A program made the position numbers and the translations under genes. The notes below the pieces were generated by a model. That model was not told where the DNA came from, ran no database searches, and worked only from the letters and a program-made list of their open reading frames with translations. Positions 1,481-22,063 of a stretch of 64,000 bases of DNA are shown here, piece after piece; the first letter of the stretch is position 1; every line of letters begins with the position of its first letter. The stretch is from the NCBI GenBank assembly GCA_965224255.1, contig CBDCYO010000001.1, positions 12,456-76,455 on the forward strand, read 5' to 3'. The stretch is from Dehalococcoidia bacterium (GTDB taxonomy: Bacteria; Chloroflexota; Dehalococcoidia; UBA6926).

Positions 1481-1509
1481 ATGGCAGACTTCCGTTCAAA
1501 CTCTGCCAC
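1481..1509. repeat. hairpin element H1 (ATGGCAGA[C/G]TT-loop-AA[G/C]TCTGCCA family)
   Basis: atggcagacttccgttcaaactctgccac; convergent intergenic region. Confidence 0.7.
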
Positions 1510-1590
1510 TTTCCCGCCTATGTGCGTACCGGGGACATGAGCGAGTTCGAAGTGGGGAAACCCCTAAACAGAAGGCGTACCATCAGACAG

Positions 1591-1989
1591 TCACTCCTTC
1601 TCCCGCCAGGTGCGCTCTGGATCCATGAGAGGCATCAGCGGCTTCGGCAATTCCGCTGCTTCAGTTTCATCAAGCCACTCACGAAATACGTCCCCTTGGC
1701 ACGACGCGTAGCCTTCCAGCCAAGCCATCCTTTCGTATGTCACGGACACCCTGCTATCCAACGCTTCAGCGGGTTCCTGCGCAGCCTCGAGGCGGCGTAC
1801 TATGTCCCAATATCTATTTTCCTGACGGGTTTCCGCGATTCCTATGAAAACCGCGAAAAGCACAAAAGCACCGGATATTAATGCAGGGCTAATCCATTGC
1901 GACACAGGGGTACCTCTTTCGTAAGACGGTTGCACTTTGACGGTAGAAAGTAGTGATCGTTGCAACGACGCACGAAAGATCGCTCGCAC
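1591..1989 (-). CDS. hypothetical membrane protein (one predicted TM helix)
   Basis: ORF track. Hydrophobic segment ISPALISGAFVLFAVFIGI. Alternative GTG start after AAGAGG gives MSQWISPAL.... Confidence 0.35.
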   Translation of the reverse strand: MRAIFRASLQRSLLSTVKVQPSYERGTPVSQWISPALISGAFVLFAVFIGIAETRQENRYWDIVRRLEAAQEPAEALDSRVSVTYERMAWLEGYASCQGDVFREWLDETEAAELPKPLMPLMDPERTWREKE

Positions 1990-2053
1990 GAGTCGATGAA
2001 CAACACGATCATAGTTTCAGGCCACTAACCCACCTCGGTCAACTTGCCGAAGA

Positions 2054-2274
2054 ATGGCAGATTTCAGCGTAAAGTCTGCCATTTTTGGGCGCCCTGGTCC
2101 GGAGTTGGGTGCCGCCGCAAGCACAGCGCTGGCGCGAATCGGCAGCGAAATGGCAGAGTTGCTAATGAACTCTGCCATGCCAACGTCGAAAGGCCTCTGG
2201 CTATGTGCTTGCAACGGCGGCGGCGATCGGCCCAAGGCATTAAAAATGGCAGACTTTACTTGGAAGTCTGCCAT
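2054..2274. repeat. three hairpin elements H2-H4, spaced about 95 bp apart (2054-2082, 2150-2178, 2246-2274)
   Basis: Each has 11-bp stems atggcaga[t/g/c]tt / aa[a/c/g]tctgccat with different 7-nt loops. The central stem base covaries. Confidence 0.8.
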
Positions 2275-2277
2275 CGC

Positions 2278-2321
2278 TAGTACTCAATCAATCTTGGAAT
2301 TGAAGGGATAGAGGCGATGCA
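2278..2321 (-). mobile_element. IS630-family terminal remnant (~44 bp, about 95% identical to the end of the IS630 element at 61919-61965)
   Basis: tagtactcaatcaat[c/g]ttggaattgaagggatagaggcgatgca is shared with 61919-61965. It encodes the ...RLYPFNS(K/N)ID transposase tail. Confidence 0.6.
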
Positions 2322-3142
2322 TGTAATCGGCGACGTAGATGTAACCGGCAGCATCGACGGTGACCCCGGACGGCCGGCTGAACTCGCCATCGCCTCGGCC
2401 GCTGCCGCCGTAGAACGCCAGGTATTGCCCGTCCCGCGAAAACGTCTGGATGCGGTCGTTGCCCCAGTCCGCCACGTACACTCTGCCGTCAGCGCCCACG
2501 ACCGGCCCCAGGGCAGGTTGAGTTCGGCCGGGCTGCTTCCTGGCGTCCTAAGGACGCCAGGAAGCAGCCCTCCGTTGTGAACTTCTGCACCCGGCGGTTG
2601 TAGGCGTCCGCGACGTAAAGGTTGTCGTCACTGTCAAAGACCAGGCCCGACGGGGTGTCCAGCTGACCTTCGCCGGCTCCGTGCTCGCCCCAGATGGACA
2701 GCAGCGCGCCCTCCCGGTCAAACACCGAAATCCGGTGCAATTGCTCGTCGCTGACATACACCCGGTCCCGGCTGTCCAGCGTGCAGGTGGAGGGCCAGAT
2801 GAACCGGCCCGCGGATACGCCGTAAGCGCCGAAGGTCCCGTAGTACTCGCGGTCGATGTCGCACATGGTGAAGCAGACGCCCCGCGTGACGTTTTCCAGA
2901 GAACGGTTGCGACGCACATCCGCCCGTCGGCGGCGATGGCCGTGTCGGTGGGATAGTAGAACCCCCGGCCTTCCATGGTAATCATGCCCAGAGTAAGACG
3001 GTATTCGAGTAATTGGATTGCTCTGTCCCGAATTGTGGTCATGGTCTTTCTGCACCCATCCGGTTGGGCTAGGCCCAGAAGAGATTCCGAAATTCCATTC
3101 CGTCATTCCGGCGAAAGCGGAGATCTCATCGAAGCGGACCAC
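2284..3142 (-). pseudogene. NHL-repeat protein gene, multiply frameshifted, fused to IS630 remnant at its 3' end
   Basis: YVADWGNDRIQTF, YVADAYNRRVQKF and YVSDEQLHRISVF NHL-type repeats are split over several reading frames (2284-2499, 2489-3142, 2548-3042). Confidence 0.6.
2531..2569. repeat. 39-bp perfect palindrome (18-bp arms, TAA spacer) inside the NHL pseudogene
   Basis: ggctgcttcctggcgtcc taa ggacgccaggaagcagcc; arms are exact reverse complements. Confidence 0.9.
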
Positions 3143-3213
3143 CAGCCTTTAGCGGGTCGTAGAGTTCGGCGCGGTAGCCTTTGCCGCCTGGCCACAGTAT
3201 GCCGCACGCATCG

Positions 3214-4719
3214 TCAGTTCTGTTGCGTATTCTTTGCGGACAACTCCGAGCGAGGAAAAACGCGTCCGCCAAGGATGACGACATCAATAGCATCGAAAGC
3301 GGACACGTCATTCATCGGGTTTTTGGTCATTAACAACAAGTCGGCGCGTTTGCCTTCCTCTACCGTACCTATTTCTTCTTGCAGACCAAAAAACTCCGCA
3401 TTTGCAATCGTCGCGGCGCGAAACAACTGAGCAGGAGTGACGCCAGCATCCAGCCAACGCTGCATTTCCATAAAGCCGTTAAGGCCGGGAGGATTGGCGT
3501 AGGTGGGACTGCTCGGGGTGTCGGTGCCGAAACTTAACCGCCCGCCATTCGAAGCAAGATAGGAGAGCGCCGAGGTGACGCCGGCTATCGGCGCATCGCC
3601 CAATTCCTCCCAGTGGCCGCTTTCCACTACTCGCGCCACTCTCGGATTATCGAGCATTCGATTGCGAAACCACCGCCCATCATCGGTTTTATACCAGTCG
3701 ATGAGGCTTTGCGGCAGCACGTCCTGCAATTCGTAACCGGAGAGATAGTCCGGGTTGTGCAGGTCACGCTCTCCATAGAGCACCTGCATGGTAGGTTGCC
3801 AAACGATGTTTCGTTCAATGATGGCATCAAGGATCAGGGTAACCTCCGGGTTTAGCCTGGCTGCGGGTCGCTCATCCCAATTCCACATCCCGTGGGCCAA
3901 ACCATCGACACCCGTTTCAACTCCGAAAGCTTGAGCGGATTGCGAATTGGCGTGCAGTAGCACCGGCATTCCCTGCTCGTTTGCGGCGGTCACCAGATCC
4001 CGCATCATCTCTTTGGTGGGTAAGGGCAAATCGTCCTGAAGACCAAACCCCGGTTCAAAAAACGTCTTCACGCAGATGGCGCCGTCATCATGCATATTTG
4101 CGACGACAGCCTGCGGCATATGTTCTTCTGGGTCATATTTGACAGGGAATTCATCAGCGCGCGCCTCGTCAAACAGGAAATACGGCGCAACACGGTAACG
4201 AACAGATTTTGGTATGAAGTTCATCGGATATCCGTCGAATACGGGCGCCGGTCCACAAAAATAAGCGTGCGGGCGAACGTCTTGCTTGTTCCACTCTTCG
4301 ACCACACCGGGCGGCGACGCCAAATCAATCACCGTGGTAAAGCCGTAATAGAGATAACTGCGTGGGATCTGTCGGCGGGCATCGCGGGCGATGTTCGGAT
4401 AGTCATTTTCATGCAAGTCGGTCATTCCTGGTATATCGCTCAAATGGGTATGAGCGTCAATCAGTCCAGGCGTCAGGTAGCGTCCTGCACCGTCGATCAC
4501 TTGATCTGACTCGTGGGCGCTCTGTGCAATCTCGCGCCCGATCACAGCGATCCGCCCCTCACGCACCAGAACGTTCGTCAACTCGGACGGCACATCCCGC
4601 TCCGGCGAGACAATGACCACATTTTTAATTAGAAGGCCATTCGCCACGATTTCGCTCGTATCTGTGGTACATCCAATTATGGCTAGTGCGAAGCAGAAAG
4701 TGGCCAGGTAAATTTTCAT
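3214..4719 (-). CDS. amidohydrolase-family metal-dependent hydrolase, predicted lipoprotein
   Basis: 501 aa. Signal MKIYLATFCFALAIIGC. GLIDAHTHL metal-binding motif. Amidohydrolase fold features throughout. Confidence 0.85.
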   Translation of the reverse strand: MKIYLATFCFALAIIGCTTDTSEIVANGLLIKNVVIVSPERDVPSELTNVLVREGRIAVIGREIAQSAHESDQVIDGAGRYLTPGLIDAHTHLSDIPGMTDLHENDYPNIARDARRQIPRSYLYYGFTTVIDLASPPGVVEEWNKQDVRPHAYFCGPAPVFDGYPMNFIPKSVRYRVAPYFLFDEARADEFPVKYDPEEHMPQAVVANMHDDGAICVKTFFEPGFGLQDDLPLPTKEMMRDLVTAANEQGMPVLLHANSQSAQAFGVETGVDGLAHGMWNWDERPAARLNPEVTLILDAIIERNIVWQPTMQVLYGERDLHNPDYLSGYELQDVLPQSLIDWYKTDDGRWFRNRMLDNPRVARVVESGHWEELGDAPIAGVTSALSYLASNGGRLSFGTDTPSSPTYANPPGLNGFMEMQRWLDAGVTPAQLFRAATIANAEFFGLQEEIGTVEEGKRADLLLMTKNPMNDVSAFDAIDVVILGGRVFPRSELSAKNTQQN

Positions 4720-4837
4720 CTCGTCGCTTATCCTCGTAGCTGGTGTCCCTCGTCAACTATATTTGCTTATTTGTCGTCGACTAGTTTTGCCGGTTCACGT
4801 CCCCGGCCGGTGACCTCTGGGAGCTGGTGATCAGGGA

Positions 4838-5644
4838 TCACTCGATATAGATCGAACCGTTCGAAGTAGTCAGCGTTAGATCAGTATCGCCGTCTCCAAT
4901 CACGGCAGCCAAACGGTTATTGTGGCGGGTCGCGGAGGCAACCGAGAGGGCCGATCCCATCACGATATCGCCGTTACTGGTCTCCGCATCCACACTCAAG
5001 CTGACCAGCCCGCCTTCGAGCAGAGTAGTGATGTTCCCGTTGGAAGTCTTGAACCGATTGTTCGTTCCGCGTGCCAGTTCTCCCTGGAAGCGAATCCCGC
5101 CGTTGTAAGTCCTGATGTTGAAGGTTCCTCGGCCATCATCGACCTCGATCTGTCCGTTGGAGGTTGTGATGTCGTATACCCCTTCCACGTCAACGGCTTT
5201 GATGGCTCCGTTAAACGTCACCAGCTCTACAGCGCCGATTATATTGCGCAAGCTGATGATTCCATTCTCGGCCCTCACGTGTATGTTCGAACTCCGCGGC
5301 ACGATGACCTCAATGTTAGCCCGCCGTCCCTGCGGGAAGAAATTGGCCCAGAGGCCAATCCCTCGAGCCGTAACGCTGACCGTATTCCCGTTCTGTACTG
5401 CCTCGTACGCCATTCGGTCAGGACGGCGCAATTCCGCCACCACATTTACGTGTTGATCGTGCACTCCGCCGTACACCTTAACGCTACCGTTGAAGTCCTT
5501 GACGACCAGTGTGGGCACATCCGTAATCGCGAATGTGTCGTTTCTGCTCACCTCCGGCCAAGCTTCATGCCACGGTGAGAACCCACAGGCTGCCGTGACC
5601 GACGCAATGGCCGCCAACAAAAAGCACAGGCTAATCAATCGCAT
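4838..5644 (-). CDS. DUF4097-like putative adhesin/lipoprotein
   Basis: Repetitive beta-rich TSNG(Q/N/S)I motifs; signal MRLISLCFLLAAIASVTAAC. The ORF track allows a longer N-terminus (to 5698). Confidence 0.6.
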   Translation of the reverse strand: MRLISLCFLLAAIASVTAACGFSPWHEAWPEVSRNDTFAITDVPTLVVKDFNGSVKVYGGVHDQHVNVVAELRRPDRMAYEAVQNGNTVSVTARGIGLWANFFPQGRRANIEVIVPRSSNIHVRAENGIISLRNIIGAVELVTFNGAIKAVDVEGVYDITTSNGQIEVDDGRGTFNIRTYNGGIRFQGELARGTNNRFKTSNGNITTLLEGGLVSLSVDAETSNGDIVMGSALSVASATRHNNRLAAVIGDGDTDLTLTTSNGSIYIE

Positions 5645-6011
5645 GGCTACCTCCCTTGCTAATGCGCAGTGGTCGAACGCAGACCGCGTAAAACCCACCC
5701 GCCGGAACTTGAACCGGGTGCTCCATCCCCTGACGCGAAGGGTTATCGCGACGCATTCTATTTCTTTGGGCAGACCGCTGACCCCTAGTCGTCGTCAGGT
5801 GGTGACGGCATGAGGGCGAAGATTATACCGCAACCGTCGCGGCCATTTAGGTTCGTGGTGCCCCAAGGGGACGGCGGGCCGTTCCCAGTAGGGCTGCGTT
5901 TCCAAAAGCTGCAGGGTCGGTGCCAGATGTCTCAGTTGACCTATCGGAGTTTCGCTAGTCGTAGACCAGCGCGCTATCTCTTCCGAGCTGAACTCGATTG
6001 CGGACGATTCC

Positions 6012-7577
6012 GGCTGGACTTTGTACAAAAGTTAGATACGTGGCGGAATCGGCGCACTTCGTGCTGTGGCTGGCCTACTGACATATTCAACTATCGGGGT
6101 TGAAACCTCGGCTTTGTACAATCAAGCGGCATAGGCTAGCGTGTCGAGCATCCTGTGGTACAAGAGGCGCGGGACTTTTATCGATTCGTGCTCGCGCTCG
6201 GACGGCATAAAAGTTCCCTGCTGCACCCAGAGGTGTCGTCTGACCAGGGCGACGGCGTCGGCGAAGGAAGGGCTGGTTTTGTCATACCACGCCGCGGTGC
6301 GCGGCGCCATGGCGCCACGCTGTTCGATCAGGATATCCGCTGCCAGCGTCACCACGCTGAACAGGCCAAAGAGCGCGGGGGTGGTTCGGGCGATGGCTCG
6401 TTCCGACCACTGGCGCTGGGTTTCCATGCCCAGGTGAGCCCGCAGCTCCTCAAAGGTCACCTCGACCTGCCACCGCAGCAGATACCACTGCAGTATCCGC
6501 AGGGGTTCCGCCTCGGTGTCGGTGCATAGCAAAGCATAGGGCCCGCGGCGCTCCGCCAGGTATCTGATGACGACCCAACGTATGGGAAGGCGCGGCGGCC
6601 CGCCGTGGTACCACAGCGCTACGCCCGAAGCGAGCTCGACCATGGCGGTACTGCCGTCGGAACCGGTGGCGCGGTAGGGAATCCATGCGGTAGGGGTCCA
6701 TTGTGTAGCGGGATCGTCCAGCACCGCCGTGGGACTGGGCAGTCGCGCGCCGACCACCCGGGGCCGCCCGATCTGGCCGGGCCGCCGCGGTGGCGCGGGC
6801 TGGTACCGGGACGCGTCCTTGCGCAGTTTGGTGACGACGACAATCGGCTTTGACATACTCTGGCAATGCCGCAGGAACTCCCGCTTGGCGTAGCCGCCAT
6901 CGGCCACCACCACCAGGTCCCTCTCCGGCAGCCAACGGCGCAGGCAGACCAGCATCTGCTGGGCGTAGTCGGTGAACGTCTTGTGCCGGCGACCTTTGCG
7001 CCGGTCGTAACGGGCCGACACCACCAGCGCGGTCAAAAACGGCAGCGCCCAGTGTCGACCCGCCCATCCGATACGCGTCAGCAACATCAGGCTCACCCAT
7101 TGCAGTCCGGGGGTCATCACCACCTGGTCGTCGGTGGACCGCACCGGATCCCGATACCGCCCCTTGGCCGCAATCTTCCGCCCCCAGCGTCGCTCCACCG
7201 TCTCGTCAATGCCGAACACCAACGGCTCGGTGGATGAACCAAGGCGCCCGGCCAACAGCAGCAACAGCGCCCGGCTCAGTTGCAGCGGCGACCATTGGGC
7301 GCGGTTGAGCACGTGGTGATAGACGGCGAAGTCGCCGTGCTGCCCAATCCCCAGGATGTTGAGGGCGGAGGACACGGTGCGTTTGCCGGGAGACAGGATC
7401 GCTCCCATGGCCAGGAGTTGGGCTTTGCGCCAGGTCCTGGGGTCAAACAGGCGCTCAAAGGGCAGCAGCAGGGTTACCATGACTGCGGGCAGGGTAGGCA
7501 TACTCGACCTCTTGTGGTGATTTGGTCGAGCTTACCCTGTCCTTATAACTTATCTAGCTTTTGTACAAAGTCGAGCC
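6012..7577 (-). mobile_element. IS701/IS4-like insertion sequence (~1.57 kb) with 27-bp terminal inverted repeats
   Basis: IRs GGCTGGACTTTGTACAAAAGTTAGATA (6012-) and RC of 7551-7577 GGCTCGACTTTGTACAAAAGCTAGATA (25/27 identical) flank the transposase gene. Confidence 0.8.
6122..7501 (-). CDS. DDE transposase (IS701/IS4-like family)
   Basis: 459 aa. FGIDETVERRWG, VVADGGYAKREFL and YLLRWQVEVTFEELRAHLG are typical DDE_Tnp_1-like blocks. Confidence 0.85.
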   Translation of the reverse strand: MPTLPAVMVTLLLPFERLFDPRTWRKAQLLAMGAILSPGKRTVSSALNILGIGQHGDFAVYHHVLNRAQWSPLQLSRALLLLLAGRLGSSTEPLVFGIDETVERRWGRKIAAKGRYRDPVRSTDDQVVMTPGLQWVSLMLLTRIGWAGRHWALPFLTALVVSARYDRRKGRRHKTFTDYAQQMLVCLRRWLPERDLVVVADGGYAKREFLRHCQSMSKPIVVVTKLRKDASRYQPAPPRRPGQIGRPRVVGARLPSPTAVLDDPATQWTPTAWIPYRATGSDGSTAMVELASGVALWYHGGPPRLPIRWVVIRYLAERRGPYALLCTDTEAEPLRILQWYLLRWQVEVTFEELRAHLGMETQRQWSERAIARTTPALFGLFSVVTLAADILIEQRGAMAPRTAAWYDKTSPSFADAVALVRRHLWVQQGTFMPSEREHESIKVPRLLYHRMLDTLAYAA

Positions 7578-7595
7578 GAATTGGGTCTGAGATAA

Positions 7596-7665
7596 ACGCG
7601 CGGACACGCGCGCAGCGTTGGTGAGGTGGATTGCCTCATCCAATCACATCCAATCACATCACCAC
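7596..7665 (+). repeat. repeat family R2 copy a (second copy at ~60281-60365, - strand), contains tandem CATCCAATCA units
   Basis: About 80% identity over about 55 bp between gcgcggacacgcgcgcagcgttggtgaggtggattgcctcatccaatcacatc and RC of 60285-60340; both end ..atcgccat. Confidence 0.4.
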
Positions 7666-7741
7666 AATACGACACCATCGCCATCCGGCAGATCATTACG
7701 CCGCAGTCCCATCGGCAGAGCGGCGTACCGAGCATCTCTGT

Positions 7742-8218
7742 TCAACGGGATACCACGGGCGGGGCGGGGTTGCTCAGGTCTATGCCGAATGCACTCGCCA
7801 CCTCTCTGATGCGGGACCATTTGGCGGTGGCGTAATCCGTGGCCTCGTACCGCTGTATCTGCTGTTCCTTCAGTCCCAGCCGGTCCGCCAACTCCTTTTG
7901 ACTGAGACCCTGGGAGATGCGTGCCTTGATGAGCAGGGCTGGTAGGTCGGCAACCACCCGCAGCCTGTCCATTCGGAACTCACCCGCCCTCACCGACTCG
8001 TACTCACGCAACTCGGCTTCCAGGTCGGACAGCTGACTGCTGACCGCATCCGCCTGTGCTTGCGCAATCATGGGATGCACTCCGTCCACCGCCTCGGGCC
8101 GTTCCCTGAGGCCCCGCAGGGTCTGAAGACCATATGGAGTCCCCTGCATTTGACAGCCGACGCACTCTGTGTTAAATGCACTGGCGATCTTGTCATGATC
8201 GGCACAGAATTCGAACAT
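7742..8218 (-). CDS. XRE-family HTH transcriptional regulator with Cys-containing N-terminal region
   Basis: C-terminal LIKARISQGLSQKELADRLGLKEQQIQRYE is a canonical HTH_XRE. N-terminal FCADH...ECVGC may bind metal. Confidence 0.6.
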   Translation of the reverse strand: MFEFCADHDKIASAFNTECVGCQMQGTPYGLQTLRGLRERPEAVDGVHPMIAQAQADAVSSQLSDLEAELREYESVRAGEFRMDRLRVVADLPALLIKARISQGLSQKELADRLGLKEQQIQRYEATDYATAKWSRIREVASAFGIDLSNPAPPVVSR

Positions 8219-8234
8219 CGGATGTATTCATCAG

Positions 8235-9002: not shown

Positions 9003-9827
9003 TTACCCACAGCGGCCCGCATCCGATCCCGGTCAGCCTCGCCTGCCCGGTTCGCGCCGCTGTGGTTCCTTGGCTCAGACCTCCCCCGGTCCAATCCCCA
9101 CCGGCCCGGAGGCCTCCGCCGGCGGAGGTACGATAATCTTCGAGAGGTCCCTTTCGCAGGCCAACCGGTACCCTGTTTCAGCCATCGATATGGTGAAGCC
9201 AGCAGCGGAGAATCGGGCGGCGCGCCATTTGGAACCAGCCGCCACGGTCTGATGACTGCGCAAATAACAATGTAATTGAGCGTGGAAACTGTGGCAAAGA
9301 GAAAGTGTCAAAGGTGCCCCGGCGGTGCCCGTACCACCTGCTGCCCCTTCTGCCGGCTCACGGCGTCGTCTTGAGGTTTCAGAGCAAGGATGATGAGCAT
9401 TGCCTCAAACCAAATGTTATGAACTCCGGTCGCACAGGGTCTCCTGGTGGATACAGCCATGAAATTCGAGCGCTTAGCCAACGTCATCAGGGAAACCCAC
9501 CGCAACGCATCGGTGGACATGATTTGCCGTGCGCTGTACTCGCGTCCCCCGCCTTATTGATACCCGCCGTGCTTCGCCCAAGGATCATTACGTAAACTTG
9601 GCCGAGTATCAGCCGCAGGCGTTGCACGTCGGGAACCAAGACCCGTTGCGACGTCGGTTGGCCTTGTTCACCCCGCACTTCCCGTAGATCGGCGCCCCGG
9701 ACCCGCCTGGCGATGCTGCTGGCCAGCTGGTGCCAGCGCCAGCGCTGCCTGCTCTGTTCTCTGGTCGGTGAACGCCGCGAATTGGCAGGCCCTGCCCAAA
9801 CGGCAGAGCGTCGGCGACCGGAGGCCG

Positions 9828-14637: not shown

Positions 14638-14674
14638 CGCCTGCTGCCGACACGAGCATATGAGGGAGTGAGCG

Positions 14675-17600
14675 ATGGCGGTGACATCCATCAACAGCGA
14701 AGACCGGCTGGTGCAGGTGACTTTTGCCCAGCACCTTGAGCAGGCGCTGGGTTGGGACAGCATCTACGCCTGGAACCAGGAAACCTTTGGGCCGGACGGC
14801 ACCCTGGGCCGTGCCAATACCAAAGAGGCGGTGCTGACCCGTGACGTGCGAGCAGCTCTGGAACGGCTCAATCCTGAGCTGCCGGCTTCCGCCATCGAGG
14901 ACACGGTGCGGAAATTGGCGGCCTATGACGTCAGCCGTTCGATGGTGCAGCATAACCGCGATTTCTACCGTCTGATCCGCGGTGGCGTTCCCGTCGAATA
15001 CCGCGACGACAAAGGCAGCCTCCGAACAGCCCGTGCCCGGGTGATCGACTTCGACAACGCACCGGGTACCAATCGCTTCCTCGCCGTGCGCGAGTTGAAG
15101 CTTACCGGTTTCCGAACGCCGAACTACAATCGCCGCGCCGATCTGGTCTGTTTCGTCAACGGCCTGCCGCTGGTCTTCATCGAGCTGAAGGCGGTCTACA
15201 AGAACATCCGCGAGGCCTTTGAAAACAACCTCTCCGATTACATGGACGAGAGAGTCATTGCCCATGCCTTCCACCACAACGCCTTCCTGATCGTTTCCAA
15301 CGGCGACCGCGCCCGTTTCGGCTCTATCACCAGCCAGTGGGAGCATTTCGCCGAGTGGAAGCGGCTCGATGAGGCGGACACGGGCAGTCTGGAAGCCGAG
15401 GTGTTGTTGAACGGTATGCTGGCCCATGACCGGCTGCTGGACATCGTCGAAAACTTCATCCTGTTCGACGACAGCAAGCCAGGCGCCACGCGCAAGGTGA
15501 TCGCTCGCAACCACCAGGTTCTGGGCGTCAATCGAGCCGTCGAGTCGGTTCGCCGGCAGGAAGAGTTGAAGCTGGAGTTCCCGCCAGTGCGGCGTTTGGA
15601 ACACCGCGTCGTGGAACTTCCGCTGGAATCCCGAATTCCCACCGAGCACGAGTTGATGCAGGGTCGGGCCCGAGCGGCGTCCCCTTTCATTCCAGCAGGA
15701 CCGATAGAAATTATCGAGCGGGCACATCCCGACCTCGGCCGGCTCGGCGTGTTCTGGCATACCCAGGGTAGCGGCAAGTCCTATTCCATGGCGTTTTTTG
15801 CCGAGAAGGTGCGGCGGAAGGTGCAAGGCAACTTCACATTCCTGCTGATGACCGACCGCAATGACCTTGATAGCCAGATCTACAGAACCTTCATCGGATG
15901 CGGCATCGCTGACAATCAGACACCGCGCGCCGCGTCGGGCGACGATCTGGAAAAGCGGCTGCAAGAAAACCCCAGCTACCTCTTCAGCCTGATCCACAAG
16001 TTCAACAAAGATGTCGATCCTAAACAACCGTACAGTGAGCGCGACGACATCATCGTCATTTCGGACGAGGCACACCGTACCCAGGCGGGACGGCTGGCGC
16101 GCAATATGCGCAACGCGCTGCCGAACGCGTCCTTCATCGGGTTCACCGGCACACCTCTGTTCACACAGGACGAGCTGACGAGGCGAATTTTCGGCGACTA
16201 CGTCTCGCGTTACGATTTCAAGCGGTCCGAGGAAGACGGCGCCACCGTCAAGCTGGTCTACGAAAACCGCGGCGAGATGCTGGGTGTCGCCCGGAAAGAT
16301 CTAAACGACCTGATCGCGGCCAAGATCGAGGAGGCCGAGCTCGATCCTGACCAGGAGGCGCTGCTCGACAAACTGCTGGGCCAGGACTACGAGGTGATCA
16401 CAGCGGATGCACGGCTCGAGAAGATTGCGGCCGATTTCGTCGAGCACTGTGCAACCCGATGGCAATCGGGCAAGTCGATGCTGGTCTGCATCGACAAAAT
16501 CACCTGCGCACGGATGCTGCAACTCATCGTACCCAGGTGGAAGGTGAAAGTCTTTGCGGTCCGCGCTGCAGCTGGAGCGAAGCGAGCGGAGGCCAAGGCG
16601 GCAAATGACGAGAGTGTCCGCGATGCCCTCGCGGAGCAAGCTCAAGAGCTGGCAGCCCAAGCCGATTGGCTGGACGAGACGATCGTCGAGATCATCATAA
16701 GCGAGGCGCAGAACGAGGTCTCCGACTTCAAGAAGTGGGGATTCGATATCATCCCGCACCGCGCCCGAATCAAGCAGGGTTTTGAGACGCCGGATGGCCG
16801 GCGCGTTGATGTTGAAGATGCATTCAAGGATCCGGATCATCCATTCCGTGTTGCCATCGTCTGCGCCATGTGGTTGACCGGTTTCGACGTGGAATGTCTG
16901 TCAACTCTCTACATCGACAAACCCATGAAAGCGCACAGTTTGATGCAGGCGATCGCGCGGGCGAACCGGGTCTATCCCGGAAAGGATTTCGGTCTGATTG
17001 TCGACTACAACGGCATGTTGAGAAGCCTGCGGGAGGCTCTGGCGCAATACGCCCTCGGCGACGATGGGGGAGATGACGGTCCGATCGTCGAGCCTATTGA
17101 GGAGCGTTTACAGGCACTGATCGAAGCTATCGAGGCGACGGAGGCACACCTTCGCGGCCTCGGTTTTGACCCGAGGTCATTAATCGGCTCGACTGGTTTC
17201 GCACGGATTAAGGGCCTGAAGGATGCAGTCGAGGCCGTTTACACCAGCGACGAGGATAAGCGCCGGTTCGAGGTGCTAGCCAGGCAGGTGTTCATTCGTT
17301 TCAAGGCGCTACTGACCGAACCTTCGGCGTTCGCCTACGCTGAGCGGCATGACAACATCGAGGCGATCTACAAGAAACTCGCCGAGCGGCGCGACACGGC
17401 GGACGTAACGGAGCTGCTCAAAGAACTACACCGGATAGTGAACGAGGCCATCCGCACTCAAGAGCCGGGTGAAGATCAGGCAGAGGGGTTGACCTTCGAT
17501 CTCAGCCAGATCGATATGGAAACACTGCGGGACGAGTTCGCGAAGAAGGTTCGCCGCAAGGCGACGACGCTACAAGACATTCGCGACATCGTTGAGCAAA

Positions 17601-18088
17601 AACTCGTTGAGATGCTCGCGCGTAATCCGTTGCGCATGGACTACCAACAAAAATATGAGGAGATCGTCGCGGCCTACAACCGCGAGAAAGATCGTGTCAC
17701 CATAGAGGAAACGTTCCGGCGACTAACCGAGCTGATGGTCGAACTCGACGCCGAACAGAGTCGTGCAGTACAGGAAGGCCTCGACGAGGATGAGTTGGCC
17801 CTGTTCGATCTGCTGAAGAAAGACGGTTTGAATAGGTCCGACCGCGAAAAAGTCAAACAGTCAAGCCGGGAACTCCTCAAGGCAATCAAAAAACGACTGG
17901 CCGAACTAGACCGATTCTGGGAGAAAGAGCAGACCAAGGCGGAAATGGAGGTATTCATCCTCGACGCAGTCTTCGTTAAACTCCCGACCTCGGCCTTTTC
18001 CTCAGAGGAAAAGCGGACAGTTGCCTCCGATGTTTATAACCACGTCTGGCAGCAGGCCCTCAGCCGCCAGTTTGCGATCGCGGCGTGA
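14675..18088 (+). CDS. hsdR: Type I restriction enzyme endonuclease/helicase subunit HsdR
   Basis: 1137 aa; TQGSGKS (Walker A), VISDEAHRTQ (DEAH), FTGTPLF motifs; RBS GAGGGAG upstream of ATG 14675. Confidence 0.95.
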   Translation: MAVTSINSEDRLVQVTFAQHLEQALGWDSIYAWNQETFGPDGTLGRANTKEAVLTRDVRAALERLNPELPASAIEDTVRKLAAYDVSRSMVQHNRDFYRLIRGGVPVEYRDDKGSLRTARARVIDFDNAPGTNRFLAVRELKLTGFRTPNYNRRADLVCFVNGLPLVFIELKAVYKNIREAFENNLSDYMDERVIAHAFHHNAFLIVSNGDRARFGSITSQWEHFAEWKRLDEADTGSLEAEVLLNGMLAHDRLLDIVENFILFDDSKPGATRKVIARNHQVLGVNRAVESVRRQEELKLEFPPVRRLEHRVVELPLESRIPTEHELMQGRARAASPFIPAGPIEIIERAHPDLGRLGVFWHTQGSGKSYSMAFFAEKVRRKVQGNFTFLLMTDRNDLDSQIYRTFIGCGIADNQTPRAASGDDLEKRLQENPSYLFSLIHKFNKDVDPKQPYSERDDIIVISDEAHRTQAGRLARNMRNALPNASFIGFTGTPLFTQDELTRRIFGDYVSRYDFKRSEEDGATVKLVYENRGEMLGVARKDLNDLIAAKIEEAELDPDQEALLDKLLGQDYEVITADARLEKIAADFVEHCATRWQSGKSMLVCIDKITCARMLQLIVPRWKVKVFAVRAAAGAKRAEAKAANDESVRDALAEQAQELAAQADWLDETIVEIIISEAQNEVSDFKKWGFDIIPHRARIKQGFETPDGRRVDVEDAFKDPDHPFRVAIVCAMWLTGFDVECLSTLYIDKPMKAHSLMQAIARANRVYPGKDFGLIVDYNGMLRSLREALAQYALGDDGGDDGPIVEPIEERLQALIEAIEATEAHLRGLGFDPRSLIGSTGFARIKGLKDAVEAVYTSDEDKRRFEVLARQVFIRFKALLTEPSAFAYAERHDNIEAIYKKLAERRDTADVTELLKELHRIVNEAIRTQEPGEDQAEGLTFDLSQIDMETLRDEFAKKVRRKATTLQDIRDIVEQKLVEMLARNPLRMDYQQKYEEIVAAYNREKDRVTIEETFRRLTELMVELDAEQSRAVQEGLDEDELALFDLLKKDGLNRSDREKVKQSSRELLKAIKKRLAELDRFWEKEQTKAEMEVFILDAVFVKLPTSAFSSEEKRTVASDVYNHVWQQALSRQFAIAA

Positions 18089-18473
18089 CGGGCCATCTTG
18101 ATGGGTTGATGACAGATGCCGAAACAAATGGAGATCCACCCACAGCAAATTGACCCCAATGCATCCCGCTTGTCGTGCAGAGGGTAGCGTAGATGCTACG
18201 AACCGGTTGATGCCGTATGCTGTTCTTCATGTGGCCCAGCGCAGTTTGCACTTATCACGACCGGACATACGCAGAGCGCACGGGCAGTAGCCGAGACTGG
18301 GTGCCCGCCGCCGCAGTGCACCTTAGTTCAAACTATTGCAGTTTGCTTGAACTTTATCCCAGCGTCTCCTCTTAGTGCCGTCAAAGTTTCAATAGAAGTT
18401 GCCGTTCTCCAAATCCCAAAGGCGGGTACGGTTGCTACTGCAGGCACGGGGACAGGGCCGGATTCCTTGCACG

Positions 18474-18502
18474 ATGGCAGACTTTGAACGGAAGTCTGCC
18501 AT
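18474..18502. repeat. hairpin element H7 between convergent hsdR and the Dam-ParB-nuclease cassette
   Basis: atggcagactttgaacggaagtctgccat, perfect 11-bp stem. Confidence 0.8.
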
Positions 18503-18652
18503 GCTGGTTCAGCCGGCAAACCGAATGATCAACTCAATTCGCTGCGAGTACGGTTCCGCTATGGACTTCTGCCGGAGCATGTCAATCGACTTAACAGCCT
18601 TGGGTGAGTTGACGGACTATTGCATCCAGCCAACCCTGAGATCGTTGAGTAA

Positions 18653-19618
18653 TCAAACCGCAGGCAATCCATTGGCGATGGCGGCCGCTCGTGTCCAAGC
18701 AGACATGTATGCCAGGGTCTGGGACGAAATTGTTTCGCATAACTCGATTACTCGCGACCGATCGAACAAAATGCCGGCGTACGTAGACCTCTTGTACCAA
18801 CGGTCTTCGGGCAACTCATCCGTGATGAAAAACATGCGGACCGGGTCAACTGCTGGCATGCTGTCGAACCAATTTTTACAAAACGCATCGGGCTTGAGCC
18901 TTGTGAATTGTTCTTCGTAGTGGGTGCCGGTTTTACATTGCCCGAATCCAATCAACTTGCCTTGTCTGTCGTCGTTGAACGGATTCCAGACCACCACATC
19001 AAGTCCATCATCTTTTGCTTAGGGATTGCCGCCCGATCTGTTTTTGTAGGTACTCCCTTCACCTATTTGCTGACAAAGCGCCTTCACCCGGTCTGAAAAG
19101 CTTCGAGTATCACTGGATGTACCGAACACAAAGCTTCGGGACCCGTCTCCGAAATATCGACTAGCGACCTCTGCACAAAGTTGCTCGAATAATTCAGTCC
19201 CATCAATGCCCGCATGCTTCTTGTTTAGGTTCATATCCAATCGGGTTGCCAAGAGCAAATATTTGTACACGGTTTGGCGAGGGTTGCCGCCGCCCTGGCG
19301 CCATTGAAGTGAACTACCAGTGTGGTCCAACTCGAAAGGATACCCTGAACCGTACGCTTCCGTGCGTTCTTCGACGAGCTCGAATGCTCCCTTCACCCAC
19401 TCATACAATTCGTCGATTTCGAGAACGCCGTTTGCATGGTCGTTCTCTTCAGGTTTGGCTAGTTGGTTAGAGACGTGCCTATCGGACGCCATGCCACTTT
19501 GCCAAGATATGAGCTCACTGAAATCTGCGACGTCCAGTTGCCATGCCAGTAGTTCGTTGTAGTCTGCTTGGTCTTGGTCAGTCGGTCGAGCTGGAAGTTC
19601 CTTGGGCCATTTGAACAC
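18653..19618 (-). pseudogene. PD-(D/E)xK-like putative nuclease interrupted by one in-frame TAA (ORFs 19019-19618 and 18653-18997 are in the same frame)
   Basis: GTG start after GAGGTGA RBS, 13 bp downstream of the ParB-like stop. ...STYKNRSGGNP*AKDDGLDVVVWNPFNDDRQGKLIGFGQCKTG carries a D...(Q)xK PD-(D/E)xK-like motif. Confidence 0.4.
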
Positions 19619-19630
19619 GGGTGGTCACCT

Positions 19631-20731
19631 CTACGGTCGCGAGGGCTGAGGCCTTGGTGAAGCGAATTGTTTGCGCACCATCTCTGCGTGAAGGTCCGTA
19701 GCTAAAGCGACGACTCCATCAGCAGTCGCAAGCAATTCGCCGGATCCGTCATACCCGTCTGATAGCATTGCCCGCGCCTCACGCAAGCTCTCCATGGCCG
19801 CGACCAAGGATTCCTCGAATCGATTAGTCGGGGGACGACTCGCCGCAAACGCCGCTTGGAGGTTGCTCGTATTGCGTAGACTGGCTACCGCCGACCGATT
19901 TCCCAGTACTGCGTCCAATTGACGGAGGTGTGGGTTCTGGGATCGTATGATGGGACGTGCATCCTTGCGCTTACTACCGTATAACCATAGGCATAGTTCA
20001 CCAAGTTCCGTTCGTTTTTCCGAAGGGACGGGCTCCGGGTCCTCCGCTTCCTCTGAGGTCAGTCCGATATACGAACTGATGCCAGGATAATCTAGTCCCG
20101 TATAAAGATGGGAGAATGAAAAATGTCGGTGCCACCGATCTTCGCGGCGAAAAACCTCCCAATCCTCAGCTTGTTCGATAACTTTCAGCCCACGAAAAAG
20201 CCTCTGGACCGTGTTGTGGTTGTCGCCAATCTGCTGCGCGATCTGTACCAAAGAGACGTTGAAGGTTTGGTTGACCGAAGCGACATATCGTGCTTTTGCG
20301 TAGCTGCCCCACTTAGCTGGACCGTTGACGTGTTTGAAACCGAGAAACCTCCAAGTGTCTTCTCGCGTATCTATCAGACAAGGTAGGCGGTTCAGCCCAT
20401 CAAGTAGGTCGGCCGCAATCGTCGGGATATTGGCTTTCACCTGCCGGGCGACGGCGGGGTCCCTGATTGCCTTGACTGCTGCCAGCCGACGGTTTCCTTC
20501 GATAACGACAAATTTGTCTGACTCCTCCACCACGATTAGAGGCTCGTGTCGGAAGAACCCGCTGGCCGTGATGGACATCACTAATTCCTGCACATCCTCC
20601 GTTTCCCACAGTATCTTGATGATGTCCATTTCATTTTGGATCGGCGAGTCGAAAAATTCGGCAAGCCTCGGATTCTTCACATCGAACTCGAGTTGGTCGA
20701 CGTCGATGTCGGTAACCGTTGGCGTAGTCAT
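19631..20731 (-). CDS. ParB/Srx-like nuclease-domain protein with HTH-like region
   Basis: HEPLIVVEESDKFVVIEGNRRLAAVKAI matches the ParB GxRR box. ATG overlaps the Dam stop (ATGA at ~20728-20731). Confidence 0.75.
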   Translation of the reverse strand: MTTPTVTDIDVDQLEFDVKNPRLAEFFDSPIQNEMDIIKILWETEDVQELVMSITASGFFRHEPLIVVEESDKFVVIEGNRRLAAVKAIRDPAVARQVKANIPTIAADLLDGLNRLPCLIDTREDTWRFLGFKHVNGPAKWGSYAKARYVASVNQTFNVSLVQIAQQIGDNHNTVQRLFRGLKVIEQAEDWEVFRREDRWHRHFSFSHLYTGLDYPGISSYIGLTSEEAEDPEPVPSEKRTELGELCLWLYGSKRKDARPIIRSQNPHLRQLDAVLGNRSAVASLRNTSNLQAAFAASRPPTNRFEESLVAAMESLREARAMLSDGYDGSGELLATADGVVALATDLHAEMVRKQFASPRPQPSRP

Positions 20732-21630
20732 GGCGTTTGCACCATCTGTTGGTTGGGTATTGGCTCGGGACCGCAGGATGAAACCCATGCGGACGGGCGT
20801 TGCACGTAAGGTGGCGTAATCAGCAGTTCGAACGTTTTCTTCTTCTGTTGCAAGCTATATTGCAAACCAATATCCGAGATATTGCAGTCGGCGTAGAGCC
20901 CTCTGATTAGTTGGGAGTCATCGTATGAGGCTACCCATTGGACCGATTGCTGTCGCCGCAAGTACCGAGCGAGTTTGCCGTGGTCTTTTGTGTCGTAATC
21001 GTTCAAATACAGGCGACTCCCCTTCGAGACGTAAGGTGGATCCAAATACACGAAGACCTGCTTGCGGCGGTTACCTTTAGGAAGGTGGGTAGTCAAGAAT
21101 CGCAACGCGTCGTCATTGGTAACCTGGATTTGGTCTCGCTGTTCAGCAACTCGGACGATTCGTTCAGCGAGGGCTTGCCGGTTGAAACGCGCATCCATGC
21201 GCCACGTTCCAGTCTGGGAATATCCGCCTATCGGTGCCGAACCGAGCAGGATGCCAGAGCGATTGCACCGGTTCAAATAAAACGTGGCAAATCCGAGATC
21301 GAACGTGCTATGCAGGGTTGGTTGTAGGCAGATTTCTTTTTGCTTTCGCCATTGGTTTACGTTCAATTCAACCGACATGATCGCATCGGCAAATCGTTCA
21401 TGTTCGTTGAGAATAGCCTGCCAGAACGCGTAAATCTTCGGGTCGAGATCGTTCAGCAGTAACTCAGAAACCACGCCCTCGCGCAAAAGCCGAAGGGCTG
21501 CTCCGGCTCCGCCTGCAAACGGTTCGAAGTATCTACATTCCCTGAGACCGTTGGTTTCTATGAAACAACCCAATAGACCGGCCAGCGAACCCTTACCTCC
21601 CGGATAACGTAAAGGGCTATACGTTCTCAT
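20728..21630 (-). CDS. Dam-like (D12 class) N6-adenine DNA methyltransferase
   Basis: N-terminal LRYPGGK, FEPFAGGAG and DPPY motifs diagnostic of the Dam/MethyltransfD12 family. Confidence 0.9.
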   Translation of the reverse strand: MRTYSPLRYPGGKGSLAGLLGCFIETNGLRECRYFEPFAGGAGAALRLLREGVVSELLLNDLDPKIYAFWQAILNEHERFADAIMSVELNVNQWRKQKEICLQPTLHSTFDLGFATFYLNRCNRSGILLGSAPIGGYSQTGTWRMDARFNRQALAERIVRVAEQRDQIQVTNDDALRFLTTHLPKGNRRKQVFVYLDPPYVSKGSRLYLNDYDTKDHGKLARYLRRQQSVQWVASYDDSQLIRGLYADCNISDIGLQYSLQQKKKTFELLITPPYVQRPSAWVSSCGPEPIPNQQMVQTP

Positions 21631-21953
21631 GCCAACTCGACTTTGCCGTACTAATTGCGGTCATTCTAATCGAATTCAATTGGAAACAACAAAGACTGCC
21701 AGGCTCTCGGGAACCTGGTCTGGCCTGTAACGCGGGACACGATTGCGGGCGCTACCTAACAACCTCGAGCTACGACGCTGCCCACCGACGCCACGTAGTT
21801 GCGATTGGAGTCGAACGGCGAGTCCAGATAGATGAGGTAGACCGACGCTGAATTGAGGCCGCACGAGATGCCCAGGTTGTCCCCTGTCCAAATGGTTCGA
21901 TCGGCAGAATTGGTCATGGGAAAATGCCAACTGGACAGTCGAGCGATGGCAGA

Positions 21954-22063
21954 GTTTGAGCACAACTCTGCCACTTTTGTTGGGTCTGCGGTGGCCTCTA
22001 CTCGGAGGCCATCTGGTGACAATGGGTCCTTTTGGCAGAGTTAGTCTGAGTGTATTCTGCCAT
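21954..22063. repeat. hairpin elements H8 (21954-21982) and degenerate H9 (22031-22063) between Dam start and integrase fragment
   Basis: atggcagagtttgagcacaactctgccac; tttggcagagttagtctgagtgtattctgccat. Confidence 0.7.

What the first reader, a model, noticed from the sequence alone, without database searches (positions are those of the whole stretch)
1481..22063. Family of nine ~29-bp hairpin elements with compensatory stem covariation, positioned at module boundaries
Elements at 1481, 2054, 2150, 2246, 10961, 11058, 18474, 21954 and 22031 share the stem ATGGCAGA[C/G]TT / AA[G/C]TCTGCCAT with variable 7-nt loops. When the central left-arm base is C the right arm has G, and vice versa (H3/H8 use G..C, H4/H7 use C..G). 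This means the hairpin itself, not the primary sequence, is conserved. They cluster upstream of hsdM, between hsdR and the Dam cassette, and between dam and the integrase remnant, so they flank acquired modules. Three copies at 2054-2274 are regularly spaced (~95 bp). Candidate REP/MITE-like elements or recombination/termination structures of a new family.
Basis: seen in the sequence. Interest (0 to 1): 0.6.

Follow-up and report, generated by a model that had tools for sequence, protein, structure and literature searches.

The report
Recombinase target sites bounding defence modules
The nine "hairpins" are most likely double-stranded lox/dif-like target sites for a family of very small tyrosine recombinases in uncultured Dehalococcoidia; they cut a defence-gene island into blocks, and one of their junctions differs between almost identical strains.

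Summary
The palindromes are real: seven strong and two degenerate copies, none expected by chance, all within 1.4-22 kb. The claimed stem covariation fails. In 60 distinct sites from Dehalococcoidia genomes the singled-out pair is unpaired in 25. What is conserved is the half-site (A/G)TGGCAGA-S-TT.

The anatomy is 11-bp inverted arms around an asymmetric 7-bp centre, as in loxP, FRT and dif. The "integrase remnant" at 22065-22602 is a frameshifted member of a family of 184-189-aa tyrosine recombinases that consist of the catalytic domain only.

- Five of five recombinase loci fetched by protein alone carry such sites within 2 kb.
- More distant homologues carry different palindromes of similar build.
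- Metagenome contigs 99.8-99.9% identical to window 18472-31631 are unrelated to the left of it. The switch falls inside site 18474: the left arm differs at its two variable positions, while spacer and right arm are identical.
- Flank families in other genomes are re-joined to different partners exactly at the sites.

The blocks include a Type I restriction-modification system and a PD-Lambda-5 system. Closest analogue: Acinetobacter pdif modules. It is not a REP, MITE, terminator or integron attC. Binding and catalysis are inferred, not shown.

The parts
1481..1509 (.). Site: ATGGCAGACTT-CCGTTCA-AACTCTGCCAC. It has the same 7-bp centre as site 18474, in inverse orientation.
   Evidence: I7: 28 nt, 96% complementary to 18475-18502
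1369..1452 (-). 28-codon 5' remnant of an N6_N4 methyltransferase-HNH gene (flank family F2), directly next to site 1481.
   Evidence: tblastn; family F2; Pfam of the intact homologue
1510..2053 (-). Small module between sites 1481 and 2054. It holds one ORF (1591-1989, 132 aa) with no family match.
2054..2274 (.). Three sites (2054-2082, 2150-2178, 2246-2274) at 96-bp spacing. The middle one has the centre GCTAATG that recurs in many genomes. The two 67-bp inter-site stretches are inverted copies of each other.
   Evidence: (I4)
2275..10960 (.). 8.7-kb module: NHL-repeat protein, amidohydrolase, DUF4097 protein, an insertion sequence (6011-7578), an HTH_3 protein and a solute-binding protein. 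It ends in the ~60-nt conserved flank F0.
10961..10990 (.). Degenerate site with an 8-nt centre (CATAAGCG). It is paired with 11058 at 97 bp.
11058..11086 (.). Site: ATAGCAGACTT-GTACCCA-AAGTCTGCCAT, upstream of hsdM.
11087..18473 (+). Module holding a Type I restriction-modification system: hsdM 11255-13420, hsdS 13417-14637, hsdR 14675-18088. It is absent at this position in the 99.8-99.9% identical contigs.
18474..18502 (.). Site: ATGGCAGACTT-TGAACGG-AAGTCTGCCAT. This is a hybrid junction. The left arm differs from the near-identical relatives at arm positions 1 and 9. The centre and the right arm are identical to theirs.
18503..21945 (-). Module holding a PD-Lambda-5-type defence pair: ParB-like protein 19631-20788 and D12 methyltransferase 20728-21630. 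It also holds a disrupted 321-aa gene (18653-19618) and a 41-codon methyltransferase remnant (21795-21917).
21946..21974 (.). Full site: ATGGCAGAGTT-TGAGCAC-AACTCTGCCAC followed by TTTT, about 90 bp upstream of the recombinase start. This is the standard position in the type-d recombinase loci.
22032..22063 (.). Degenerate second site: TTGGCAGAGTT-N10-TATTCTGCCAT. It ends 1 nt before the recombinase ATG.
22065..22602 (+). Small tyrosine recombinase gene (catalytic domain only). It is inactivated by a frameshifting deletion near 22230.
   Evidence: family
23655..23927 (+). Second, partial copy of the recombinase gene, covering residues 94-184.
   Evidence: (D1)

Best explanation
Each 29-bp palindrome is a core site for site-specific recombination, built like loxP, FRT or dif. 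It has two inverted 11-bp arms, (A/G)TGGCAGA(C/G/T)TT, and an asymmetric 7-bp centre.

Inferred steps: each arm binds one subunit of a small Xer-like tyrosine recombinase, and the strands are cut and exchanged at the centre. The recombinases are 184-189 aa and consist of the catalytic domain alone. Dehalococcoidia genomes encode several paralogues, usually with one full site about 100 bp upstream of the gene and a degenerate site at its start codon.

Recombination between two sites with matching centres swaps the flanking DNA, by inversion, excision or integration, or module replacement. This turns the 20 kb next to the now frameshifted recombinase gene into an array of exchangeable blocks. 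Two of those blocks are complete defence systems: a Type I restriction-modification system and a PD-Lambda-5 pair.

Shown here: the site anatomy, the linkage to recombinase genes, a hybrid junction between near-identical strains, and the re-joining of flanks at the sites. Inferred: that these recombinases bind the arms, where they cleave, which paralogue acts in trans, and whether exchanges are inversions or cassette moves. A subset of sites may also act as operators that overlap promoters.
For: 1. Anatomy. Arms of 11 bp with 9 near-invariant positions flank a variable 7-bp centre.

2. The neighbouring gene. The gene at 22065-22602 and its intact homologues match PF00589 only. The catalytic R, K, HxxR, H and Y residues are conserved in the family. 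The whole protein aligns to residues 101-263 of XerA. The predicted fold (pLDDT 87) matches XerH, XerA and isolated integrase catalytic domains.

3. Linkage. Five recombinase loci were fetched by protein sequence alone. L119, L120 and L121 have a perfect site 105-135 bp upstream plus a degenerate site at the start. L133 has 5 sites within about 4.5 kb of the gene. L132 has variant sites 1.2-1.9 kb upstream.

4. Co-variation of protein and site.
- A 35%-identical homologue has TGATACATAA-N7-TTATGTATCA upstream.
- A 55% homologue has GGCAGAAAT-N8-ATTTCTGC.
- A 74% homologue has ATGTCCGACTT..AAGTCGGACAT, changed symmetrically in both arms.

5. A recent event. Contigs L122-L127 are 99.8-99.9% identical to window 18472-31631 and unrelated to the left. 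The first differences are exactly positions 1 and 9 of the left arm of site 18474. The centre TGAACGG and the right arm are identical.

6. Flank families. F0 (8 members), F1 (7) and F2 (6) are each joined to different partner flanks, and homology ends at the site. Window and L089 are 96% identical up to site 21946 and diverge after it.

7. Matching centres. Sites 1481 and 18474 share one 7-mer in inverse orientation. The chance of this among 36 site pairs is about 0.004 (I7).

8. Arrays. The near-identical relatives have sites about every 3 kb on one side of the recombinase gene.

9. Precedent. Hybrid junctions and a need for matching spacers are the experimentally shown behaviour of Acinetobacter pdif sites (PMC13141974).
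Against: - No experiment shows binding or cleavage.
- The recombinase lacks the N-terminal core-binding domain that Cre and Xer proteins use to clamp the arms, so recognition of an 11-bp arm may need a partner.
- The adjacent recombinase gene is frameshifted here and in all six near-identical contigs, and many family members are truncated. A paralogue would have to act in trans.
- More than 30 different centres exist, so most site pairs would be incompatible if centre identity is strictly required.
- The orientation of a centre relative to a flank is not always constant. L056 differs from L016 and L042, and L001 differs from window 18474.
- Three of the five independent loci have no further site within 10 kb.
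- The reciprocal junction of the event at 18474 was not found.
- The flank right of site 1481 does not fit a simple 1481 x 18474 inversion.
Confidence: 0.7

Rival explanations
1. Operator only. The palindromes are binding sites of a dimeric regulator, possibly the recombinase acting as a repressor. They overlap promoters of recombinase, methyltransferase and restriction genes, and no recombination takes place at them.
For: - Sites sit just upstream of gene starts: recombinase, methyltransferase-HNH, hsdM.
- A TAnnnT hexamer 2-3 nt after the site occurs in 15 of 136 distinct flanks, against a control mean of 2.5. TTG at the arm/centre junction is 16-17 bp upstream of it.
- Paired sites keep a fixed 66-69-bp gap (about 96 bp centre to centre, near 9 helical turns) although the sequence between them drifts. 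This fits cooperative binding.
Against: - It does not explain why homology between 99.9%-identical strains ends inside a site with a hybrid arm.
- It does not explain why three flank families are each joined to many different partners exactly at the site.
- The standard sigma-70 scan finds no promoter at any of the sites.
- The -10-like hexamer is present in only 11% of flanks.
- The catalytic residues are conserved, which a pure repressor would not need.
Confidence: 0.12
2. Structured single strand. The elements act as RNA or single-stranded DNA hairpins, as REP-like elements, terminators, or folded sites such as integron attC.
For: - The arms can form an 11-bp stem.
- About a quarter of flanks start with a T run.
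- Site 21946 passes the terminator scan.
- There is a slight excess of symmetric half-sites over shuffles (91.8% against 90.2% paired, reached by 3 of 500 shuffles).
Against: - The variable inner pair is unpaired in 25 of 60 distinct sites and pair 1-29 in 21 of 60. G:U pairs are almost absent.
- The other nine pairs show no change on both sides (two never vary), so they carry no covariation evidence for a stem.
- Only 1 of the 9 window sites looks like a terminator.
- No Rfam family matches.
- Copy number is low: 2-7 exact-pattern sites per complete chromosome among those scanned. None lies in the other 42 kb of the window.
- Sites lie upstream of genes as often as downstream.
Confidence: 0.05
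3. Small non-autonomous mobile element. The ~125-bp unit (site, 67 bp, site) is a MITE-like element with palindromic ends that inserts in many places. Single sites are its remnants.
For: - The unit recurs in more than 10 genomes, in both orientations relative to a given flank.
- Its two ends are inverted repeats of each other (I4).
Against: - There are no target-site duplications next to the units (flanks).
- The inner 67 bp is poorly conserved while its length is fixed.
- Most sites are solitary.
- No transposase is linked to the units, whereas a tyrosine recombinase is.
- In L096, L108 and L065 the unit is simply the upstream region of a recombinase gene.
Confidence: 0.05
4. Artefact or general recombination. 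The junction differences come from assembly chimeras or from RecA-type exchange at short repeats, not from a dedicated enzyme.
For: - The sequences are metagenome assemblies.
- Repeats can mis-join contigs.
- The reciprocal junction of the event at 18474 was not recovered.
Against: - Only 20 nt are shared across the junction at site 18474. That is shorter than usual assembly k-mers and far below the length needed for efficient homologous recombination.
- The alternative junction is reproduced in six independent assemblies from different samples.
- The same pattern of flank exchange is seen in complete long-read chromosomes.
Confidence: 0.05

Closest known systems
pdif sites and dif modules of Acinetobacter plasmids (XerC/XerD)
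   Same: Many short sites of 11 bp arm, spacer, 11 bp arm divide DNA into modules of one to several kb. The modules carry accessory genes and occur in different contexts. Junction sites are hybrids whose two arms reveal their parents. Recombination is seen between sites with identical or near-identical spacers (PMC13141974). The window shows the same kind of hybrid junction.
   Different: [quoted passage not shown]
- Here the arms are alike (palindromic) and the centre is 7 bp.
- The candidate enzymes are dedicated, half-size, multi-copy recombinases encoded next to the sites.
- The host is Dehalococcoidia, and the arrays found in complete genomes are chromosomal.
Integrons (IntI, attI, attC cassette arrays)
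   Same: A tyrosine recombinase gene has a primary site just upstream and an array of site-bounded blocks on that side. Array content differs between near-identical strains. Blocks can be defence systems.
   Different: - The sites are perfect 29-bp palindromes, not long imperfect attC sites with extrahelical bases.
- Blocks are 0.5-8.7 kb and may hold several genes on either strand.
- The recombinase lacks the N-terminal domain.
- It scores 49-54 bits against the integron-integrase model, whose cut-off is 265.
Cre/loxP and FLP/FRT
   Same: Inverted arms flank an asymmetric centre of 7-8 bp that sets orientation and partner compatibility. One enzyme species could serve both arms.
   Different: Cre and FLP have an N-terminal DNA-clamping domain and 13-bp arms. 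They serve a single site type on a plasmid or phage, not dozens of centre variants spread over a chromosome.
FimB/FimE-type DNA invertases
   Same: Tyrosine recombinases of about 190-200 aa without a separate core-binding domain. Several paralogues act on short inverted repeats next to promoters.
   Different: The sequence match is weak: 24-34 bits against a cut-off of 222. fim inverted repeats are 9 bp and flank one 314-bp switch. Here the sites are self-palindromic and bound whole gene modules.
XerS/difSL and XerH/difH single-recombinase systems
   Same: One Xer-type enzyme acts on a dif-like site. Closest solved folds are XerH and XerA. One distant homologue's site has dif-like ..CATAA-N7-TTATG.. 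arms. From my own knowledge, the XerS gene lies next to its site.
   Different: Those enzymes are full-length (about 350 aa) and act on one site per chromosome to resolve dimers.

Membership tests
Tyrosine (site-specific) recombinase superfamily (the enzyme) | Phage_integrase catalytic domain | tested here: met
   PF00589, E=2e-24 and 5.5e-23. The predicted fold matches XerH, XerA and the P2 and HP1 catalytic domains.
Tyrosine (site-specific) recombinase superfamily (the enzyme) | Catalytic residues R, K, H-x-x-R, H/W, Y | tested here: met
   R40 and Y170 are invariant. K67, H133, R136 and H160 are conserved in at least 90% of 20 diverse members. The window's own copy is frameshifted.
Tyrosine (site-specific) recombinase superfamily (the enzyme) | N-terminal core-binding domain, typical of Cre, Xer and lambda Int | tested here: not met
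   The protein starts at the position equivalent to residue ~101 of XerA. The model is a single domain. Full-length relatives are 180-220 aa.
Simple core recombination site (lox/FRT/dif type) | Two inverted recombinase-binding arms of about 11-13 bp around a 6-8-bp asymmetric centre | tested here: met
   An 11-7-11 layout. Arm positions 2-8, 10 and 11 are at least 90% conserved and the centre is variable.
Simple core recombination site (lox/FRT/dif type) | The crossover maps to the site, giving hybrid sites | tested here: met
   Window against L122-L127: the left arm differs at its two variable positions, and the centre, the right arm and 13 kb beyond are identical.
Simple core recombination site (lox/FRT/dif type) | Binding and cleavage by the cognate enzyme | not testable with these tools
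   Needs a gel-shift assay, a suicide-substrate assay or an in vivo assay.
Integron | IntI-type integrase reaching the family model cut-off | tested here: not met
   TIGR02249 scores 48.8 and 54.2 bits against a cut-off of 265. PRK15417 scores 32-45 bits against 435.
Integron | attC sites: imperfect R''-L''...L'-R' structure of 57-141 nt with extrahelical bases, all in one orientation | tested here: not met
   The sites are 29-bp near-perfect palindromes. The orientation of the centres flips within the window array.
Acinetobacter-type dif modules | Sites made of distinct XerC and XerD arms with a 6-bp spacer, served by host XerC/XerD | tested here: not met
   The two arms are the same sequence and the centre is 7 bp. 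The linked enzyme scores 52-70 bits against XerC/XerD cut-offs of 330-335.
Acinetobacter-type dif modules | Discrete gene modules bounded by the sites and found in different contexts | tested here: met
   The modules include a Type I restriction-modification system and a PD-Lambda-5 pair.
REP elements / RAYT | Hundreds of extragenic copies per genome | tested here: not met
   2-7 exact-pattern sites per complete chromosome among those reported. There are none in 42 of the window's 64 kb.
REP elements / RAYT | A conserved GTAG head and an associated Y1 (RAYT) transposase | tested here: inconclusive
   No GTAG is adjacent to the stems. A genome-wide RAYT search was not possible. None was seen among the window ORFs that were scanned.
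MITE | Terminal inverted repeats plus a target-site duplication | tested here: not met
   No duplications flank single sites or the 125-bp units.
Intrinsic terminator | G+C-rich stem followed by a T run, placed at gene 3' ends | tested here: not met
   1 of the 9 window sites qualifies. Many sites lie at gene 5' ends.
Structured RNA with a conserved stem | Compensatory changes that keep the pairs | tested here: not met
   Pair 9-21 is unpaired in 25 of 60 sites and pair 1-29 in 21 of 60. There is no Rfam match. RNAalifold finds no consensus fold for the inter-site segment.

The most novel reading that the evidence does not exclude
Dehalococcoidia carry a cassette-exchange platform that evolved independently of integrons. 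Minimal tyrosine recombinases, made of the catalytic domain alone, use self-palindromic lox-like sites to capture, invert and swap whole defence systems. Several paralogues would have different arm preferences (ATGGCAGA against ATGTCCGA), so sites with one arm of each kind, as seen in L017 and L133, would be served by mixed pairs as XerC/XerD serve dif. The fixed 96-bp double sites would be the platform's assembly or control region.
Probability: 0.35. Interest if true: 0.8.

Novelty: new variant of a known kind. Interest (0 to 1): 0.62.

Why it matters
If correct, this adds a third natural design to integrons and pdif modules for shuffling gene blocks by site-specific recombination. Here the blocks are whole anti-phage systems, in an abundant but uncultured bacterial class.

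It would also show that a tyrosine recombinase of about 185 residues with no DNA-clamping domain can serve an 11-7-11 site. That bears on how these enzymes recognise DNA and on the design of compact genome-engineering tools.

The site pattern gives a simple marker for exchangeable islands in Dehalococcoidia genomes. The strain-level junction difference makes the idea directly testable with existing long-read metagenomes.

Tried and rejected
1. RNA family search of the whole window: no match. No tRNA gene either.
2. Sigma-70 and terminator scans around all sites: no promoter, one terminator-like hit. My own test shows a -10-like hexamer enriched after the site, but in only 11% of flanks. I therefore keep the promoter/operator role as secondary.
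3. Consensus RNA fold of the 67-bp inter-site segment: none.
4. Looking for the window's left 18 kb in other assemblies. The HsdM, HsdR and amidohydrolase proteins are not on record.
5. Metagenome scan for the TGAACGG-centred site, to find the reciprocal junction: a single hit that did not help.
6. Viral contigs: no site, so there is no sign of a phage origin.
7. A simple inversion between sites 1481 and 18474. The arms fit, but the flank right of 1481 does not match the relatives' flank. Left open.
8. L129, a 42% recombinase homologue: only 142 nt of upstream sequence available and no palindrome found.
9. Literature searches for this system in Dehalococcoidia or Chloroflexi, or for catalytic-domain-only recombinases: nothing specific.
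10. Other recurrent lox-like palindromes in the window: none.

Full report
**Observation.** The pattern ATGGCAGANTT-N7-AANTCTGCCAT occurs 7 times in the window at up to 3 mismatches, against 0.00 in shuffles. A looser pattern adds 10961, which has an 8-nt centre. The half-site occurs 18 times against 3.0 expected, and every convincing copy lies between 1481 and 22063. The true starts are 1481, 2054, 2150, 2246, 10961, 11058, 18474, 21946 and 22032. The spacing of 2054, 2150 and 2246 is exactly 96 bp. So the repeat family is real and specific.

**Where else it occurs.** A scan of one genome per species found the N7 form almost only in Dehalococcoidia and SAR202 genomes. Each had a few copies, often in pairs 95-97 bp apart. 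Hits in other phyla had other centre lengths and look like chance palindromes. The window is itself a Dehalococcoidia sequence, 95-96% identical to parts of L089 and L092.

**The covariation claim fails.**
- I collected 60 distinct sites from these genomes and the window.
- In the 11-pair stem only two pairs vary on both sides.
Pair 1-29 is unpaired in 21.
- Treated as half-sites, 53% of sites have two like halves against 44% expected from independent draws (p=0.087).
- A stem under selection would not tolerate a mismatch in 42% of copies.

What is conserved is the primary sequence (A/G)TGGCAGA-S-TT on both arms. That is the signature of a protein-binding half-site with one loosely read position. 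Rfam finds nothing. Only one of the nine sites resembles a terminator. The coding alternative (MADF/MAEF) is excluded because the sequence after the site differs from copy to copy.

**Anatomy and neighbour.** Inverted arms of 11 bp around an asymmetric 7-bp centre are the build of loxP, FRT and dif.

The gene that starts 1 nt after the degenerate site 22032 (ATG at 22065) is a tyrosine recombinase. It is broken by a frameshifting deletion near 22230. A second fragment lies at 23655-23927.

Intact homologues in related genomes are 184-189 aa and match only the catalytic Phage_integrase domain. They score far below the cut-offs for XerC/D, integron integrase and Fim-type invertases. They align to residues 101-263 of XerA. 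They keep the catalytic R, K, HxxR, H and Y residues. The predicted structure is a single catalytic domain (pLDDT 87) most like XerH and XerA.

The family is small. It has 176 cluster representatives at E<=1e-10. Its full-length members are consistently 180-220 aa, and it is full of truncated copies.

**Linkage of enzyme and site.** To avoid circularity I fetched recombinase loci by protein sequence alone.
- L119, L120 and L121 each have a perfect site 105-135 bp upstream of the gene, followed by TTTT, and a degenerate site over the start codon. This is the arrangement of window 21946/22032.
- L133 has five sites around three recombinase paralogues, including a triple at 96-97 bp.
- L132 has paired sites 1.2-1.9 kb upstream with both arms changed symmetrically, to ATGTCCGACTT..AAGTCGGACAT.
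- More distant homologues carry other palindromes of similar design upstream: TGATACATAA-GAACGGA-TTATGTATCA (dif-like arms, 35% identity) and GGCAGAAAT-N8-ATTTCTGC (55% identity).

Site and protein therefore change together. This is what direct recognition predicts, although binding itself is inferred.

**Evidence that exchange happens at the sites.** The window's D12 methyltransferase is found, residue for residue, on 13 metagenome contigs. Six of them (L122-L127) are 99.8-99.9% identical to window 18472-31631 and unrelated to the left of it.

Base by base, the first differences at that edge are 18474 and 18482. These are positions 1 and 9 of the left arm of site 18474, the only two variable arm positions. 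The centre TGAACGG, the right arm and the following kilobases are identical. The window has the Type I restriction-modification genes on the far side. The relatives have a 767-aa gene there, and further sites about every 3 kb.

This is a hybrid site of the kind that documents XerC/D exchange at Acinetobacter pdif sites (PMC13141974).

Across more distant genomes, three flank families are each joined to many different partners, with homology ending at the site:
- F0, a ~60-nt element;
- F1, the 5' end of a recombinase gene;
- F2, the 5' end of a methyltransferase-HNH gene.

Window and L089 are 96% identical up to site 21946 and then diverge. Within the window, sites 1481 and 18474 carry the same centre in inverse orientation. 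The chance of that among 36 site pairs is about 0.004. By the pdif rule this makes them a competent inversion pair.

**What the blocks are.** From right to left the sites delimit:
- the recombinase pseudogene;
- a block with a PD-Lambda-5-type pair, namely the ParB-like protein and the methyltransferase (E=5e-101 for the methyltransferase);
- a complete Type I restriction-modification system;
- an 8.7-kb mixed block that holds an insertion sequence;
- a 0.5-kb block with one small ORF;
- a methyltransferase remnant.

Other loci with sites hold GmrSD, AbiJ and AbiEi-like proteins, a KAP NTPase, HicAB and SMC-type ATPases. These are defence islands.

**Mechanism proposed.** Recombinase subunits bind the two arms. 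Two sites with compatible centres synapse, and strand exchange at the arm/centre borders swaps the flanks.
- Shown: the anatomy, the linkage, the hybrid junction and the flank reshuffling.
- Inferred: binding, cleavage positions, which paralogue acts (the adjacent gene is dead here and in the relatives), and the type of event.

A secondary operator role is possible. A -10-like hexamer follows 15 of 136 distinct flanks against 2.5 in controls, and TTG sits at the arm/centre junction. The standard promoter scan finds nothing, however.

**Unexplained.**
- Paired sites keep a 66-69-bp gap although the sequence between them is weakly conserved and has no consensus fold. This suggests phased protein binding.
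- Centres are not always in a constant orientation relative to a given flank.
- Many flanks are short 5' remnants of recombinase or methyltransferase genes.
- How a protein without a core-binding domain would read an 11-bp arm is unknown.

**Comparison and novelty.** Functionally the closest known system is the pdif/dif-module system, followed by integrons. The system fails the membership features of both: arm asymmetry and host XerC/D for pdif, IntI and attC structure for integrons. It is likewise not REP, MITE or terminator. Literature searches found no description of it. The site is absent from viral contigs. I rate it a new variant of a known kind, namely arrays of modules bounded by tyrosine-recombinase sites, with moderate to high interest.

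Noticed in passing
window 6011-7578: An insertion sequence with 31-bp terminal inverted repeats (6011-6041 / 7548-7578, 90% complementary) and a DDE_5 transposase (6122-7501, minus strand). An 83%-identical copy is in L053.
   Followed up: partly
window 19631-21630: The ParB-like protein and the D12 methyltransferase match the two proteins of the PD-Lambda-5 defence system in PADLOC (E=6e-20 and 5e-101).
   Followed up: partly
window 22814-23422: A 202-aa ORF between the two recombinase fragments matches the PADLOC candidate defence family PDC-S02 (E=4e-18). It has no Pfam or NCBIfam match.
   Followed up: no
window 2530-2570: A perfect 20+20-nt palindrome with one base between the arms, inside the ORF of the NHL-repeat protein (2489-3142, minus strand). 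Its meaning is unknown.
   Followed up: no
window 479-518 and 9542-9581: A 40-nt inverted repeat (80% complementary) containing GCGAACC...TATCAATAAG. A similar motif follows the conserved ~60-nt F0 flank next to sites in other genomes (L034, L008, L053). It may mark the ends of another mobile element.
   Followed up: no
window 24581-25373 and 54390-54632: An IS5-like element with two overlapping ORFs, matching the genes called DUF4096 and DDE_Tnp_1 in L122-L123. A 243-bp fragment of the same element is repeated at 54390-54632 (95-97% identical to L122/L123).
   Followed up: no
L132 8120-8787; L017 6643; L133 6551: A variant arm, ATGTCCGA in place of ATGGCAGA, is changed symmetrically in both arms of some sites. 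Other sites have one arm of each kind. This could mean that paralogous recombinases have different arm preferences.
   Followed up: partly
21 site pairs in the window and 17 loci: The gap between paired sites is held at 66-69 bp (96 bp centre to centre) while its sequence drifts and has no consensus RNA fold.
   Followed up: partly
L122 (record ctg58821_244x_c, 152 kb): One near-identical relative of window 18472-31631 comes from a 152-kb contig whose name ends in '_c' and states 244x coverage. The suffix may mean circular, so this region could sit on a high-copy extrachromosomal replicon in that sample.
   Followed up: no
window 47493-47520: A perfect 28-nt palindrome, TTTTGAACCGGGCCGGCCCGGTTCAAAA, which looks like a bidirectional terminator just after the ORF 46262-47479.
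   Followed up: no
L133 12564-14039: A Cas12f1/TnpB-like gene (PF07282) lies 2 kb from a cluster of three small recombinase genes and five sites.
   Followed up: no
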